IMG/VR virus record: IMGVR_UViG_2534681831_000037
DNA length: 24,110 bases
Source of the DNA: a virus
Lineage: Duplodnaviria > Heunggongvirae > Uroviricota > Caudoviricetes
Direction: 5' to 3' (one strand)
Shown here: positions 3,001 through 9,000 of the stretch, piece by piece
Numbering within the stretch: position 1 is the first letter of the stretch
Layout: every line of letters begins with the position of its first letter
Program-made: the position numbers

Positions 3001-6000
3001 ATTACGGACACAAAAAAACCACCTTCCGGTGGCTTCCTTGTGCGAAAAAAACTTGCGTTTCGCCTCGCGATACAGCTTTGCGAAGCATACAGGAATTGAA
3101 GCAGTTTATGTGCAAAAATGCAAGAACTTTTTTAAAGCTGCATCAACCTTTCCACCAGTTTATCTCTGCGAACAACAAACCAACCATTGGCTCTCGCCAG
3201 TTCCAGCCATGACTCAAGGGAAATAACAATATCATCATCCCGTAACTGAATTGTGGAAACAGTGACACCGCCTCTCTGATAACAGAGAACTCGCGTGTCG
3301 TAACTTTTCTGGCATGAAACTGGCGCTGACGGATCCTTTTGTCTGAAATAGCAGTCTTCCAGCTTTTCGAACACATCCCACGCCTGATCGGTTTCCAGCA
3401 TTTTGGCATGACGGGCTGCTCCGCGTTCTGTCCAGAGGATGAGGGAGCGGGCTTTCGGGGAAATTTGTAACCCTCTTAAAGATGGTTGCAAATTTTGTGA
3501 GTAGTTTAAAGCTACCCGCAAATTTTTCAGGGCATCGCCAGCCACTTTGAAAAAATGCTTTCCTTCAATAAAGCGCTCAGCATTTCTGGCGTAGTTATTT
3601 TGAATGTTCTTAACTCCAGCACCGTACAACTGCGCCAAAAGTTCGGTGGTAATAACAGGAATCTGGTTATGGGTGATCGGGGAGAGAGTTTCAACAGAAA
3701 TTTGAGTTGTCATAATGACGCCCTCTGGTGGTTTCTAAACCATCACCACCGTCAGGTTCCTAATCATCGGGTGGTGAGACGTACAGGGTTAGGAACTACC
3801 GGGAAACCAACCGGCGAGCTTTTCAGCTCCCCCATACGCCCCACCATAATTCAGATGTGCGCGTGCATACGACAATAAAAAACACGCTCGCGGCGTGTGT
3901 CTGTCGCGGTCTCTATCCGGGGTTCCTAATCCCGACGCCAGATTTTGCTGGCGCGTGAGGAATATAGCCCCGGATAACAGATTGAGTCAACAGACAGTTT
4001 TTAAATACCCGGAAGAGAATGCATCACGCATCGGCAGATAGAGCATATATTCAGCAAGATTTAGCCATACATCTACCCGACTGCAGCACGTCCGAAAACA
4101 CCACTCAGGGTGTGCATCATTTAGCAATTCAGCCATTTTGCGCTTACTCATCCCCCGCCCTTCATATCTTTGCCGGAGGATACAAATCAATCCTGGGTGT
4201 TCTGCCAGCACTTCACTAATCACCCGATCAATGCATAACGCCTCTGCATCAGTACAATGCACCAGCCAGCTTTTTTGCTTGCCGTTGATCATATCCCGCA
4301 AAAAAGCCTCAAGTTCAGGTTTGTCCAGACCTGCTTTTTTCATCCTCCGGAGCGCCTCATTAATTGCCGTTTTTGTTAGCTTTTTAGAGGTCAGCAACTG
4401 GTTAAACATATTTCCCGTCTTACCGCCGCCAATATACGACCAGCGCCCCCACATACGTAGTTTTCCCTGAATCCAGACACTTTCCAGCGTGGTGAGACGA
4501 AGGTGTTCCCCGCTTTTGCCTGTATTTGTTGGGTAAATCATAAATAACCTTCCTTTCTCCAGATTTCTTGCGTACGAAAAACACCTTCTGCATGCATCAG
4601 GCGTAATTCTTCTTTGGTGTAATCGCTGGTTTTTACCCGCCCGTCGATTAAATCGTGGCATGAGCTGCAGGCAATCGCTGCCTGCATATCGTGTGGTTTT
4701 GTCGCTGTTCCGCACGTCCCCGCCAGCCTGTAATGCGCCAGCACAGAAGTTTCGGGATTGTGATTGCAGTAGCCAGGAATTCTGACGGTGCACATCTGCC
4801 CCCGCGCCGCTTTACGTAAATCCACCATCACGCAAACTCCAGTAACTGTGCGGCCACATTTTCGACTTCCTCCAGAGAGGAAAATTTACGGAACAGGATC
4901 CAGTTCCACAGCACATTCAGTACAGATTTATAAACCTGCTGAAACTCGGTTTCGTCCATGTTCGCAAATGCGATAGATTTTGCCCTGCGCCCACGACTAC
5001 CGTCCGGATAAAAATGTTCGATGTAAAATCCGGCCTGAATGGTTACCCATTCGCGGAAAGCGTCAAATGACTTAAGCAATGCCGTATCCCGGGTTCTGCG
5101 TGTCGCAACGGCATTCAGATATTGCTCTGCGGCTTCGCTCAGGGCTGAAGTGTGTTCCCGACCAACTGATTCGCACAGATACTCAACGAAACCGGACACC
5201 AGTTCTCGTTCTCGAGGCGTGATCGCCCCACCGTTCGGAGTCCAGTAATCGAATCCCAGTTGCAGGAGTTTGAAAAAACGCTTGTGGAACGAGTGGTTAC
5301 GCACTCGCTTAAAGTCCGCGTGTATCCACTCACCTATTTTGATTTGATGCAAAAAATCGCAACTCTCCGGTGTCGCCGGGAGAAGTAATCCGGAAGAGGT
5401 TTGTTTGACCAGTTGTATATGCGCCATCGTAGTTCTCCGCTGGCGCAGTAGAATGGGTGTTCAGCCCGTTATGTAGTATACCAGAATTAATGCCAATACT
5501 AACAGGATGCTCTGACTCGCAATTCATCCAGCAGTTTATCATTTCCCATAATGTCACTTACCCTCATCGGTAAAAAAATTGCCTTTCGACCATTACGATA
5601 CATCATTGATTTTGGGGTTTCAGGGAAGTAATCCATTTCGACTATAACTGACAGGTCATCACGACGTATGACTGCGTATTTGCTACTAAATAGTTTCTTT
5701 ATTTTTTCCACGATGCCCCCAGGTTTATAAGTACAAAAGATTATATCCACATAGAGACAAAAATATTAATCTGAAAAATATTTATTTCACGCCGTATATT
5801 TGATTGTTTAATGTGCAGGTACAATGACTTTTATTTTTTGTTGTGTATATAATCTAATATATGGTTATTTTTCACCCTACGCATTCAGCACGCAACAAAA
5901 AACCCGCCGAAGCGGGTTAAGTGCGGGTGCGTTGAGGATGCCTGACAACTTAAAGAGTGGCGGGAATTGCTCCCCGCCGTAGCTCTTAACGTTTTTCAAC

Positions 6001-9000
6001 TTCGTAGGCTAAATACGCTGAAAGCTCTGTGTTTCCCTGCCTGATGTGCAGCTCGCATAGCGAACCGCGAACCATCCAGACAAATATCAGAATGGTGATG
6101 CAAACCACCACCAGACAAAACACATAGCTCCTTCGCATTACAGCCCCCTGTTAGTTGATTTCTTACTGTTAAGAGGCTAATCTTTATGTGTCGCATACAG
6201 AATGCCTCAGATTAATGTTAAGCGTCTTGCCGGACGCGTAATGTTAACTGGGGCTTTTCTCTATCTACCTTTGGTGTTCATGCCCGAGGCAGATAGCCTC
6301 AAGCACCCACAGCAATTCTAACTATCCAATACATCACTGCCAACACTTTAAACTCTTACCCTTTAAAACAAGAACAAAATTCAACCAATCAGCATTGGGC
6401 GTATACTCATATCCTAGAGAAAACAACTCTTTCTGTACTATTTATATCCATATGATTTATAAGCATTTGCCACTTGCCATAGCCGCACAATGACAGTTTG
6501 CCATTTGATGTCAATAGATAAAAATGATCGTTTTCAATGAGTTACATACTTGCAAGGCGTTGCACATCAGGCCCGATTACGTCAGTATCAAAAGATTACA
6601 GATGGTGCATTACTGCCACCTCGCCTTAATGTTCCAGAACCCTCCAACTTGAGGAATTTTCAATGACATCCTTTCAATTATCTTTGATTTCTCGTGAAAT
6701 TGACGGCGAAATAATACATTTACGTGCCAAAGATGGTTACATAAACGCCACATCAATGTGTAGAACTGCGGGCAAACTGCTCTCTGATTACACTAGACTC
6801 AAAACTACTCAAGAGTTTTTTGACGAATTATCACGCGATATGGGAATTCCCATATCGGAGTTAATTCAATCATTTAAAGGTGGAAGACCTGAAAACCAAG
6901 GGACATGGGTGCATCCTGACATCGCTATTAATCTAGCGCAGTGGCTATCGCCCAAATTTGCAGTCCAGGTTTCAAGATGGGTTCGTGAATGGATGTCAGG
7001 GGAAAGAACTACAGCAGAAATGCCTGTACATTTAAAACGGTACATGGTTAATCGTAGTAGAATTCCTCACACGCACTTTTCTATTCTTAATGAACTGACA
7101 TTCAACTTGGTTGCACCTCTTGAACAAGCAGGGTACACACTCCCAGAAAAAATGGTTCCTGACATTTCACAAGGAAGAGTATTTTCACAATGGTTAAGAG
7201 ATAATAGAAACGTAGAACCCAAAACATTCCCTACCTATGACCATGAATATCCCGATGGTCGCGTATACCCTGCAAGGCTGTACCCAAATGAATATTTAGC
7301 AGATTTCAAAGAACATTTTAACAATATTTGGTTGCCGCAATATGCCCCGAAATACTTCGCTGACCGGGACAAAAAGGCTCTCGCCTTGATTGAAAAAATT
7401 ATGCTACCTAACCTCGATGGCAATGAACAGTTCTAAATGATTAGCCAGCCCCATAAGGGCTGGTTATTTAGTATTATCAACCCCAGTGGCAAATCGAATA
7501 CACCACCAGCGCCACGGCCATTGCAATTCCTGTCGTTGTGAATGCCTCAGGCCAGGTCATTGATTCACCTTCTGCTCAATATTTTTAAGGTCATTTTCCG
7601 CATACAGTATTGCAGTTCTTGCTGCCCGCAACCGTGCTTTGGTGTTCTTTTCTTCACGCTCGAGGCTGGCAACAGATTCTCGGAGCTGATCGCGTCTGTT
7701 ATGAAGCTGTCTAATCTCTCTCACCACAGCCTCACCATCGTTCGCACACCGCAGAACATACTGAAAAGGGTCCACAACACATCCGCACTGCAAGCACAGG
7801 ATAACGCGATCCTGTTCATGAACCTCAATGGCCCGATGCTTACAGCTCTGTTGTGTGTAGTTTTTTCTGCCAGTTACTGTAATGTTCAGCAGCTTCTCTT
7901 CATCGCGCTTTGGCTGCACCAGTGTGATGATATTATCGCCTTCATTTTCCATCAGTTCACCTCCTGCGGCGGTTCTGGTAGCGGCATCCAGTGTGTGGCC
8001 TGTTCAATACCATTACCATCAATACCATTACCAGGCGCAACCGTTATCTGCCCACGCCGAAAGGTGCTTCCGGTATAGCGTGCGGAGCATATTAGCGGCT
8101 CAACCAGATCACTATCGAAATTCACCGAAATAAGCACGTTCTGGCCCTTTTCAGGCATTCGATCACTACAGCTTATCCAGCCATCCGTAGTTACCGGAGA
8201 ATTGCCAGCCTTGCGCATGGCAATCTCCATGATTTCAACCATATCCCCTGGTGGAATTTTACAATGCTGACCAGTATGCCTCTGCTGTCTGGCATATTCG
8301 AGGATGTGCTCCAGCTTGGTACGATTAATCATGATTTATCTCCCTTAAGCATGGCAGCGCGGCAGGCATCCTCTACGCCCTTAACTGCATCTGCGCAGTA
8401 GTTATAGCGATTGCATTCCACTAACTTCTGCTTGAGATTTTCAATTGATTGCGCGATATCAGCCTGTATTACCGGAGCTGGCGGAACGGCTGTCTGCACT
8501 CGAACGTCATCAGGTACTACCGGCTCTACTGCCAACTGACTGGCATATTTGTTAATGGTAACGATAAGCTCTTGCTCGGCCTCATCCAGACAATCACCGA
8601 TACCTCGCCTGTCACCGTCAAAATCATCGAAATCGGCGCGAATCCTGGCAACCTCCCGGATTGCGGACAACACCTCACCAGGAATTACCGTAGAGTTGCC
8701 CGATAGTACATTCTGCTCCAGTGATGCCAGTGCAATCCGTGCCAACTCACGAATCTCACCGCCGTCTATATCGTCAATGTCATCACGGCCATAAATGTTA
8801 GCCAGCCATTGCAGTCGCTCTTTGGTAATAGTGATCATGCCGCGTTTCCTTCTTTCTTATTAACAATTACACCGTCATATATTTCATTAAGGTGCCCTCT
8901 CAACTCCATGCGCCTTAAGGCAGACAACATGTAATCGCATTCAACCTGCTTATTCCCAATAAAAGGTTTATCTTCAGGGTTACCCCAACAGCAATTCCCC

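What the first reader, a model, noticed from the sequence alone, without database searches (positions are those of the whole stretch)
5897..6330. Complete hok/mok/sok-type toxin-antitoxin locus with fbi/tac-like long-range complementarity
A 50-aa Hok-family ORF (5986-6138), missed by the ORF track, is overlapped in another frame by a 66-aa mok-like ORF. A 3' UTR element (plus coordinates 5921-5937) is complementary, with one bulge, to a 5' element (6297-6311), as in the fold-back structure of hok mRNAs. A plus-strand promoter (TTGATT-17-TAATCT, 6155-6183) is positioned to make an antisense RNA across the mok start. Such loci in prophages have been linked to phage exclusion.
Basis: partly seen in the sequence, partly recalled or inferred. 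Interest (0 to 1): 0.5.

Follow-up and report, generated by a model that had tools for sequence, protein, structure and literature searches.

The report
Prophage hok/mok/sok toxin-antitoxin locus
This is an intact, ordinary member of the well-known hok/sok family: a small membrane toxin gene kept silent by its own mRNA folding and by a short antisense RNA, carried on an E. coli prophage, and unusual only in pairing the regulatory half of one family branch with the toxin of another.

Summary
On the minus strand, 6343-5895, lies a complete hok/mok/sok type I toxin-antitoxin locus. The 50-aa ORF is a Hok/Gef toxin (Pfam 70.4 bits, cutoff 22). The leader matches Rfam RF01794 (93.9 bits, cutoff 59). 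The 5' end (6308-6297) pairs with a 3' box (5925-5937, one bulge) with probability at least 0.97 in the folded full-length mRNA. All 28 homologues keep this pairing, with compensating changes. Both the closed and the open mRNA conformations are conserved (91% and 96% of cells paired, against 33-49% for slid controls). The antisense promoter is weak by consensus, but TTGnnT-17-TAnnnT is positionally conserved in 28/28 loci. The predicted Sok stem-loop is 100% identical to experimentally validated sokW. New here: the locus is a mosaic (hokD/hokW-type leader and Sok body, Salmonella/Citrobacter-type toxin, private Sok 5' tail). It sits beside a BstA-like abortive-infection gene. The exact protein is already annotated "Hok/Gef family protein" on 532 contigs. 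The phage-exclusion remark is not established for prophage loci. Verdict: new member of a known kind, low interest.

The parts
6315..6343 (-). hok/mok mRNA promoter: -35 TTGGCA (6343-6338), 17-nt spacer, -10 TAGAAT (6320-6315)
   Evidence: Promoter scan, 10 of 12 matches. The -10 TAnnnT is conserved at this position in homologues.
5896..6308 (-). Full-length hok mRNA (about 413 nt). The start at about 6308 is inferred: it is the first position of the Rfam model and lies 7 nt after the -10. The 3' end follows the terminator U-run.
   Evidence: MFE -173.9 kcal/mol, z = -9.6 against 100 shuffles.
6297..6308 (-). tac (translational activator) box GGGUGCUUGAGG at the 5' end
   Evidence: Pairs with fbi in the full-length fold and with ucb in the leader-only MFE. 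Nearly invariant in 28 loci.
6261..6296 (-). 5' hairpin (mRNA 13-22 with 39-48). Its 5' arm can instead form the local metastable hairpin with tac (mRNA 3-29).
   Evidence: Helix 95% paired, with 5 pairs changed on both sides.
6250..6256 (-). ucb / anti-SD box AAGCCCC
   Evidence: Pairs with the mok SD in the closed fold and with tac in the open fold (99.5% of cells paired).
6188..6260 (+). Predicted Sok antisense RNA (about 71-73 nt): about 10-16 nt single-stranded 5' tail, long stem-loop, GGGGCUUUUCU tail. It covers the mok SD and start codon.
   Evidence: Fold -29.8 kcal/mol, z = -5.0. The 55-nt body is 100% identical to annotated sokW of 933W; the 16-nt tail differs. Ends are inferred from the sokW annotation.
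6155..6183 (+). sok promoter: -35 TTGATT (6155-6160), 17 nt, -10 TAATCT (6178-6183)
   Evidence: Not called by the generic scan. TTGnnT-17-TAnnnT is conserved in 28/28 homologues and aligns with the same position in the R1-type locus.
6204..6208 (-). mok Shine-Dalgarno GAGGC
   Evidence: Invariant GGC core. Paired to ucb in the closed fold and to dcb in the open fold (99.3% paired).
5996..6196 (-). mok leader ORF, 66 codons, +1 frame relative to hok, ending 10 nt before the hok stop
   Evidence: No Pfam or NCBIfam match. A mok ATG is present in 27/28 loci and reaches the hok AUG in 26, in any of the three frames.
6173..6177 (-). dcb box GCCUC, adjacent to the complement of the sok -10
   Evidence: Lies in the block conserved across all types (mRNA 127-140), where the mosaic switches partner.
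6144..6148 (-). hok Shine-Dalgarno (GGGGG, 5 nt before the AUG)
   Evidence: Read directly from the sequence. It is GGAGG in the Salmonella and Citrobacter homologues.
5986..6138 (-). hok toxin gene, 50 aa, MRRSYVFCLVVVCITILIFVWMVRGSLCELHIRQGNTELSAYLAYEVEKR
   Evidence: Pfam HOK_GEF 70.4 bits, E 9.6e-20; PHROG 251; 48% identical to R1 Hok; hydrophobic N-terminal segment.
5959..5978 (-). 3' UTR stem-loop GGCGGGGAGCAAUUCCCGCC, the likely protective 3' end of the processed mRNA
   Evidence: Present in the folds. Helix 91% paired in homologues. The role is inferred from R1 (PMC9841398).
5925..5937 (-). fbi (fold-back inhibitory) box CCUCAACGCACCC, with bulge at C5931
5895..5918 (-). Intrinsic terminator: hairpin AACCCGCUUCGGCGGGUU (5918-5901) followed by a U-run
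   Evidence: Terminator scan and fold.

Best explanation
A complete hok/mok/sok type I toxin-antitoxin module carried by a lambdoid (Rac-like) E. coli prophage. Proposed mechanism: (1) A promoter at 6343-6315 makes a stable mRNA of about 413 nt (inferred). (2) In the full-length RNA the 5' tac box pairs with the 3' fbi box, and the ucb box holds the mok ribosome-binding site, so neither mok nor hok is translated and Sok cannot bind well. The fold and its conservation are shown here; the consequence is inferred from plasmid R1. (3) Slow 3' trimming back to the 5959-5978 stem-loop removes fbi. tac then pairs with ucb and the mok SD moves to a hairpin with dcb, which opens the mRNA. The alternative pairing is shown to be possible and conserved; the processing itself is inferred. 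(4) A short, unstable antisense Sok RNA, made from the + strand promoter at 6155-6183, pairs through its 5' tail with the mok start region, and the duplex is destroyed by RNase III (inferred from R1 and from hokW-sokW). (5) If Sok supply stops, ribosomes translate mok into the hok start, and the 50-aa Hok peptide is made and damages the inner membrane. Biological role: not settled. By analogy with hokW-sokW, which has an identical Sok body, the most likely trigger is loss of Sok on prophage induction or prophage loss, giving faster host killing and lysis and/or prophage retention.
For: Toxin: Pfam HOK_GEF 70.4 bits; PHROG 'MokW-like host killing'; the conserved Hok residues listed in the survey preprint are all present (C13, T15, L27, C28, E29, E38, which are R1 positions 16, 18, 30, 31, 32, 41). 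Leader RNA: Rfam RF01794 93.9 bits against 59. Closed fold: tac-fbi probability at least 0.97, z = -9.6; 90.9% of cells paired against 33-44% for slid controls, with 17 pairs changed on both sides. Own 5' and 3' ends form duplexes of -18 to -27 kcal/mol in all 28 loci, and swapping ends between groups loses 7-13 kcal/mol. Open fold: 96% paired against 35-49%; it lies 3.5 kcal/mol above the MFE of the truncated RNA, and tac/ucb appears in the leader-only MFE. mok reaches hok in 26/28 loci. The sok promoter is conserved in 28/28. The Sok fold has z = -5.0 and its body is identical to sokW, which is experimentally an antitoxin that partially requires RNase III and Hfq (PMC8621323). The locus aligns element by element with the R1-type locus. 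The element definitions come from PMC9841398.
Against: There is no expression, processing or toxicity data for this allele. The sok promoter matches consensus at only 7/12 positions and was not called by the scan. The MFE of the truncated RNA keeps the closed core instead of switching to the open form. The hok SD is GGGGG, not the GGAGG of its nearest relatives. The toxin scores below the NCBIfam cutoffs for HokA and for the Hok subfamily.
Confidence: 0.93

Rival explanations
1. The role is lysis assistance: on prophage induction Sok disappears, Hok is made before holin and endolysin act, and it speeds host killing and phage release, as shown for hokW-sokW of Sp5.
For: The leader and the 55-nt Sok body are 96-100% identical to hokW-sokW. 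The locus lies in a lambdoid prophage upstream of the late and lysis genes. The hokW-sokW experiments are in PMC8621323.
Against: The toxin is only 35% identical to HokW and the Sok 5' tail differs. The effect on phage yield reported for hokW-sokW was only about two-fold. Whether this Rac-like prophage is inducible is unknown.
Confidence: 0.35
2. The role is prophage retention (post-segregational killing): cells that lose the prophage lose unstable Sok while stable hok mRNA persists, and they die.
For: This is the classical role of the family on plasmids (PMC9841398 introduction). All elements needed for delayed activation are intact: stable folded mRNA, fbi, and the 3' stem-loop. hok genes are about four-fold enriched in prophages (bioRxiv 10.1101/2025.08.07.668861).
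Against: Nothing tests this directly for this locus or for any prophage locus examined here. Deleting hokW-sokW gave no phenotype without induction (PMC8621323).
Confidence: 0.3
3. The role is phage exclusion (abortive infection): an incoming phage shuts off host transcription, Sok decays, and Hok kills the cell before the burst. This is the reading the first reader hinted at.
For: The survey preprint cites a role for hok/Sok in defence against phages; the cited work is, to my knowledge, the plasmid R1 system against T4. The neighbouring gene 6663-7436 is a BstA-like abortive-infection gene.
Against: hok genes are not enriched near defence systems (12% against 9.4% expected; same preprint). 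PADLOC has no model matching this Hok. No prophage hok locus has been shown to exclude phage in the papers read.
Confidence: 0.15
4. The locus is an inactive relic, like several chromosomal hok loci of laboratory E. coli (their inactivation is from general knowledge of the family, not tested here).
For: The hok SD carries G for A compared with relatives. Decayed copies of the same allele exist: L035 has a 7-nt deletion in hok.
Against: Both ORFs, both promoters, the terminator and every pairing box are intact. The sequence is 100% identical across several unrelated strains, and the exact protein occurs on 532 contigs.
Confidence: 0.06

Closest known systems
hokW-mokW-sokW of Stx2 phages 933W and Sp5 (VT2-Sakai)
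   Same: Lambdoid prophage setting. mRNA positions 1-105 (tac, 5' hairpin, ucb, Sok stem-loop) are 96-100% identical, the Sok body is 100% identical over 55 nt, and fbi is identical.
   Different: The toxin is only 35% identical. The hok translation-initiation region and CDS are 46% identical at DNA level. The 16-nt Sok 5' tail and mok start region differ. mokW is an in-frame N-terminal extension of hokW, whereas here mok is in the +1 frame. 933W lacks the terminator hairpin right after fbi.
hok/mok/sok of plasmid R1 (the paradigm; R1-type locus on IncFII plasmids)
   Same: Same order and spacing of all elements: tac, ucb, mok SD, dcb with the sok -10, the sok -35 with a 17-nt spacer, overlapping mok and hok, 3' stem-loop, then fbi followed by a terminator. 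The toxin is 48% identical.
   Different: Prophage, not plasmid. A longer Sok stem-loop (a 16-nt insertion relative to the Rfam model). tac is GGGUGC, not GGCGC, with a matching change in fbi.
Unnamed Hok/Gef clade of Salmonella, Citrobacter and Enterobacter (L004-L006; the same 90% protein cluster)
   Same: The toxin is 80-96% identical. The hok TIR and CDS are 96% identical in DNA to the Salmonella locus. Same mok frame.
   Different: Those loci have the short Sok hairpin and a different leader (39-43% identity over mRNA 53-105).
pndA of IncI plasmids, and chromosomal HokA
   Same: Nearest named toxins: 60% identity to the IncI Hok (the pndA name is from my own knowledge). The best NCBIfam model is HokA.
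   Different: Below the HokA equivalog cutoff (70 against 89 bits). The leader is only 37-57% identical to the IncI locus.
hokD (relF) alleles in the same prophage slot (e.g. strain Z247)
   Same: Identical KilA-N/BstA-like neighbour protein, identical promoter, and a leader 96-100% identical over mRNA 1-105 up to the mok start.
   Different: The toxin cassette is exchanged (44% DNA identity over the CDS). There mok stops at the hok AUG.

Membership tests
[quoted passage not shown] | Toxin belongs to the Hok/Gef protein family | tested here: met
   Pfam PF01848 70.4 bits, cutoff 22; PHROG 251 E 6.5e-15.
[quoted passage not shown] | Conserved Hok residues (R1 numbering C16, T18, L30, C31, E32, E41) and a hydrophobic N-terminal membrane segment | tested here: met
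   Alignment to R1 Hok places C13, T15, L27, C28, E29, E38 at those positions (residue list from bioRxiv 10.1101/2025.08.07.668861). The most hydrophobic 15-mer is residues 6-20, mean Kyte-Doolittle 3.47.
[quoted passage not shown] | The mRNA leader matches the curated covariance model of the family | tested here: met
   RF01794 93.9 bits, gathering 59, full-length match 6308-6136.
[quoted passage not shown] | Long-range tac/fbi pairing of the mRNA 5' and 3' ends | tested here: met
   12 bp plus 1 bulge, probability at least 0.97. Helix 93% paired with compensatory changes. Own-end duplexes are stronger than swapped-end duplexes between groups.
[quoted passage not shown] | Switch elements: ucb sequesters the mok SD in the closed form; tac/ucb and mok-SD/dcb stems form in the open form | tested here: met
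   Closed pairing is in the MFE. The open form is 3.5 kcal/mol above the MFE, and tac/ucb is in the leader-only MFE. 99.5% and 99.3% of cells are paired across 28 loci. These helices are nearly invariant, so the support comes from conservation and not from covariation.
[quoted passage not shown] | Leader ORF (mok) with its own SD that is translated into or past the hok start | tested here: met
   GAGGC, 8 nt, then ATG at 6196; 66 codons ending 143 nt past the hok AUG.
[quoted passage not shown] | Antisense Sok RNA gene: a promoter inside the mok-hok region, an RNA with a single-stranded 5' tail, one stem-loop and a U-tail, complementary to the mok start region | tested here: met
   Promoter geometry conserved in 28/28. 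The fold shows a 10-nt free tail plus a stem-loop, z = -5.0. The body is identical to sokW. Sequence level only; transcription was not observed.
[quoted passage not shown] | 3' processing of the full-length mRNA to a shorter translatable form | not testable with these tools
   Only the prerequisite is seen: a conserved stem-loop at 5959-5978 upstream of fbi.
[quoted passage not shown] | Hok is toxic and Sok neutralises it | not testable with these tools
   Shown for the relative hokW-sokW (PMC8621323), not for this allele.
HokA (NCBIfam NF007290 equivalog) | Score at or above the curated cutoff of 89 bits | tested here: not met
   70.0 bits, so it is not filed as HokA.
Hok subfamily NF007279 (R1-type Hok) | Score at or above the curated cutoff of 73 bits | tested here: not met
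   62.4 bits.
hokW/hokD orthologue group | Toxin closely similar to HokW/HokD | tested here: not met
   35% identity to HokW. The CDS is 44-46% identical at DNA level, although the leader is 96-100% identical.

The most novel reading that the evidence does not exclude
The locus is a natural chimera made by recombination at the universally conserved dcb/sok -10 box. This would show that hok loci evolve by swapping toxin cassettes under a common regulatory RNA. The identical 55-nt Sok stem-loop is present in about 70% of E. coli genomes, at up to 8 copies per genome, and the copies compared here differ in their 16-nt 5' tails. Sok RNAs from co-resident prophages might therefore partly cross-regulate each other's hok mRNAs, linking the fates of different prophages.
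Probability: 0.15. Interest if true: 0.45.

Novelty: new member of a known kind. Interest (0 to 1): 0.17.

Why it matters
It matters little for basic knowledge. hok/sok is among the best-understood type I toxin-antitoxin systems, its enrichment in prophages has been surveyed, and this exact protein is already annotated. The practical value is in annotation: RefSeq marks only the Hok CDS here, while mok, Sok, both promoters and the tac/ucb/dcb/fbi boxes are unannotated and can now be placed to the base. The mosaic structure, and the very wide sharing of one Sok stem-loop with differing 5' tails, give a clean natural system for asking how antisense specificity is kept when many hok loci live in one cell.

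Tried and rejected
(1) The generic sigma-70 scan did not report the sok promoter. I did not count this against the promoter, because the -35/-10 geometry is conserved in 28/28 loci. (2) The MFE fold of a 3'-truncated mRNA kept the closed core and only refolded the 5' end into the local hairpin. Forced folding showed the open form is 3.5 kcal/mol higher, so thermodynamic prediction alone neither proves nor disproves the switch. (3) Fixed-column covariation counts for the outer half of tac-fbi are blurred, because Erwinia and Serratia place the bulge one position away. I replaced them with a register-free duplex test. In that test the cognate partner was the single best in only 1 of 11 end-types, because most Enterobacteriaceae ends are interchangeable; the signal is between groups. 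(4) Mok has no match in Pfam, NCBIfam or PHROGs, and its frame varies among homologues, so it was rejected as a conserved protein. (5) Other small ORFs in the region (6202-6321 +, 5824-5982 +) have no family match and were dismissed. (6) Weak Rfam hits to rsmX and isrK at 5897-5984 (E about 0.7) reflect only the terminator hairpin. (7) A search for the peptide in the survey preprint's supplementary tables found nothing; stored long files are cut, so this is uninformative. (8) PADLOC has no hit for Hok.

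
Full report
**Observation.** The region was read on both strands and its ORFs listed.
- The 5'/3' complementarity is real. Within the predicted transcript, 6308-6297 pairs with 5925-5937 as 12 bp with one bulged C (5931).
- The 413-nt RNA 6308-5896 folds to -173.9 kcal/mol (z = -9.6 against 100 dinucleotide shuffles). The end-pairing has probabilities of 0.97-1.00 in the ensemble.
- Only 1 of 2000 shuffled 3' UTRs paired as well with the 12-nt 5' box.
- The + strand hexamers TTGATT-17-TAATCT are at 6155-6183. They match consensus at only 7 of 12 positions and the generic scan did not report them. 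The case for this promoter therefore rests on conservation (see below).
- The scan did find the mRNA promoter (TTGGCA-17-TAGAAT, 6343-6315) and an intrinsic terminator (5918-5901 plus a U-run), which bracket the locus.

**Identity.**
- The 50-aa product scores 70.4 bits on Pfam HOK_GEF (cutoff 22) and hits PHROG 251, 'MokW-like host killing'.
- It is 48% identical to R1 Hok and carries the residues that a recent survey found conserved in more than 80% of 1264 Hok peptides (bioRxiv 10.1101/2025.08.07.668861).
- Rfam's RF01794 model matches 6308-6136 on the minus strand over its full length, at 93.9 bits against a gathering score of 59. This model describes the hok mRNA leader in its open form. 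The only notable departure is a 16-nt insertion at the tip of the Sok-region hairpin.

**RNA anatomy against the defined model.** Le Rhun et al. (PMC9841398) define the elements as follows. In the full-length mRNA there is a tac/fbi stem, with the mok SD held by ucb. [quoted passage not shown] There is also a metastable 5' hairpin and a protective 3' stem-loop. All of these map onto the window.
- In the full-length MFE the mok SD (6208-6204) is paired to ucb (6254-6250) and the hok AUG is buried.
- The leader folded alone gives the tac/ucb stem as its MFE. The full open conformation lies 3.5 kcal/mol above the MFE of a truncated RNA.
- A truncated RNA refolds its 5' end into the local hairpin.
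- The predicted Sok RNA (6189-6262 as folded) has a free 5' tail of about 10 nt, one long stem-loop and a U-rich tail (-29.8 kcal/mol, z = -5.0).

**Conservation.** I assembled 28 distinct homologous transcripts from E. coli, Salmonella, Citrobacter, Enterobacter, Erwinia, Serratia, phages, plasmids and viral contigs.
- **Closed structure:** 90.9% of cells are paired, against 33-44% when partners are slid by 1-3 columns, with 17 pairs changed on both sides.
- **Open structure:** 96.0% paired, against 35-49%. The multi-partner boxes (tac, ucb, mok SD, dcb) are almost invariant, as expected for sequences that must pair with two or three partners. For these boxes the evidence is conservation, not covariation.
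- **tac/fbi duplexes:** every transcript's own ends form a duplex of -18 to -27 kcal/mol. Swapping ends between the Enterobacteriaceae and Erwinia/Serratia groups costs 7-13 kcal/mol. The IncI locus shows a U-A to C-G exchange.
- **sok promoter:** it reads TTGnnT-17-TAnnnT in all 28 and aligns with the same position in an R1-type locus.
- **mok:** a mok ATG lies 7-10 nt after GAGGC in 27 of 28 loci, and in 26 the ORF reaches the hok AUG. It does so in any of the three frames. Translation into hok is therefore what is conserved, not the peptide, consistent with PMC9841398.

**What is particular here.**
- **The locus is a mosaic.** mRNA positions 1-105 are 96-100% identical to the hokD/hokW group. 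The hok translation-initiation region and CDS are 96% identical to a Salmonella locus and only 41-46% to hokD/hokW. The switch occurs across the conserved dcb/sok -10 block.
- **Module shuffling is general.** Long and short Sok hairpins occur with both toxin types, in all four combinations. Strain Z247 has the identical neighbouring protein and leader but a hokD cassette.
- **The Sok RNA.** The 55-nt Sok body is identical to sokW, and only the 16-nt 5' tail differs. That stem-loop is found in 3804 of 5426 complete E. coli genomes, at up to 8 copies per genome, and is unannotated in every listed hit.
- **The toxin.** It falls below the NCBIfam cutoffs for HokA and the R1-type subfamily, so it belongs to an unnamed clade. 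The exact protein is on 532 contigs and is already named 'Hok/Gef family protein'. RefSeq annotates it in the 100%-identical genomes.

**Function.**
- The molecular mechanism is inferred with high confidence from R1 and from hokW-sokW. For hokW-sokW, toxicity, neutralisation by the 71-nt sokW, partial dependence on RNase III and Hfq, loss of sokW on induction, and a two-fold effect on phage release were all shown (PMC8621323).
- The biological role of this allele is open. The options are lysis assistance, prophage retention and phage exclusion, and they are not mutually exclusive.
The survey found hok enriched in prophages (23% against 5% expected) but not near defence systems (12% against 9.4%).

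**Context and verdict.** The window is a Rac-like lambdoid prophage next to ryeA/sdsR. The divergent neighbour at 6663-7436 is a BstA-like abortive-infection gene. This is an intact, correctly recognised hok/mok/sok locus: a new, mosaic member of a thoroughly known family, and of low interest.

Noticed in passing
window 6663-7436 (+): The KilA-N gene transcribed divergently from hok matches the BstA prophage abortive-infection protein (PHROG 6287 E 2.7e-89; PADLOC BstA 73.8 bits). hok/sok therefore sits in a prophage accessory slot next to a defence gene.
   Followed up: partly
L017 (E. coli Z247) 1-903 compared with window 5850-6400: The same slot, with an identical KilA-N protein, promoter and leader, carries a hokD toxin cassette and not this one. 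The toxin has been swapped while the regulatory RNA was kept.
   Followed up: yes
window 6001-6007 (-): Tyr45-Glu46 is encoded UAC-GAA within CUACGAA. To my knowledge this is the anticodon-loop sequence of tRNA-Arg(ACG) and the motif reported to allow TadA A-to-I editing (Tyr to Cys) in hok mRNAs. 26 of 28 homologues keep TACGA. The local hairpin is weak (-1.6 kcal/mol).
   Followed up: partly
alignment A1 (28 loci): The mok frame relative to hok differs between lineages. It is in-frame as an N-terminal extension (hokW type), in the +1 overlap (window, IncI, P1), or stops at the AUGA of the hok start (Z247 hokD, Erwinia).
   Followed up: yes
L010 (Serratia inhibens) 674-826 and 1152-1304; L007 (Erwinia) 671-826 and 1249-1404: Tandem duplicated hok loci lie about 480-580 nt apart, each with its own tac and fbi boxes.
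   Followed up: no
L035 (IMG/VR contig), hok region: A copy of the same allele has a 7-nt deletion in hok that fuses mok to the Hok C-terminus, so it is a decayed copy. L027 has three extra G in the hok SD and a shortened mok.
   Followed up: partly
L013 (PP818812.1 'Actinobacillus phage vB_Apl-pPE4') compared with L019 (E. coli plasmid p727A3-47K): A phage recorded as infecting Actinobacillus carries a hokD-type locus and flanking genes laid out almost exactly as in an E. coli 47-kb plasmid. The host assignment or the purity of that record may deserve a check.
   Followed up: no
window 6204-6262 (+) compared with E. coli genomes: The Sok stem-loop sequence occurs in 3804 of 5426 complete E. 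coli genomes, at up to 8 places per genome. No feature is annotated under it in any listed hit.
   Followed up: partly
window 1200-1454, 1567-1815, 3767-3967, 21764-21942, 23504-23648: Other Rfam hits above gathering score: AgvB and STnc100; three tRNAs; C4 antisense with its a1/b1 target and isrK; RalA (antitoxin of RalR); SraC/RyeA with SdsR/RyeB. Together they mark a prophage rich in regulatory RNAs, inserted next to the ryeA/sdsR locus.
   Followed up: no
window 5499-5750 (-): The gene downstream of hok (83 aa from a GTG start; RefSeq calls a shorter 70-aa form) matches PHROG 1813, of unknown function. The matching gene is called 'rem' in the mEp460 and PPompW records, and it follows hok in several prophages.
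   Followed up: no
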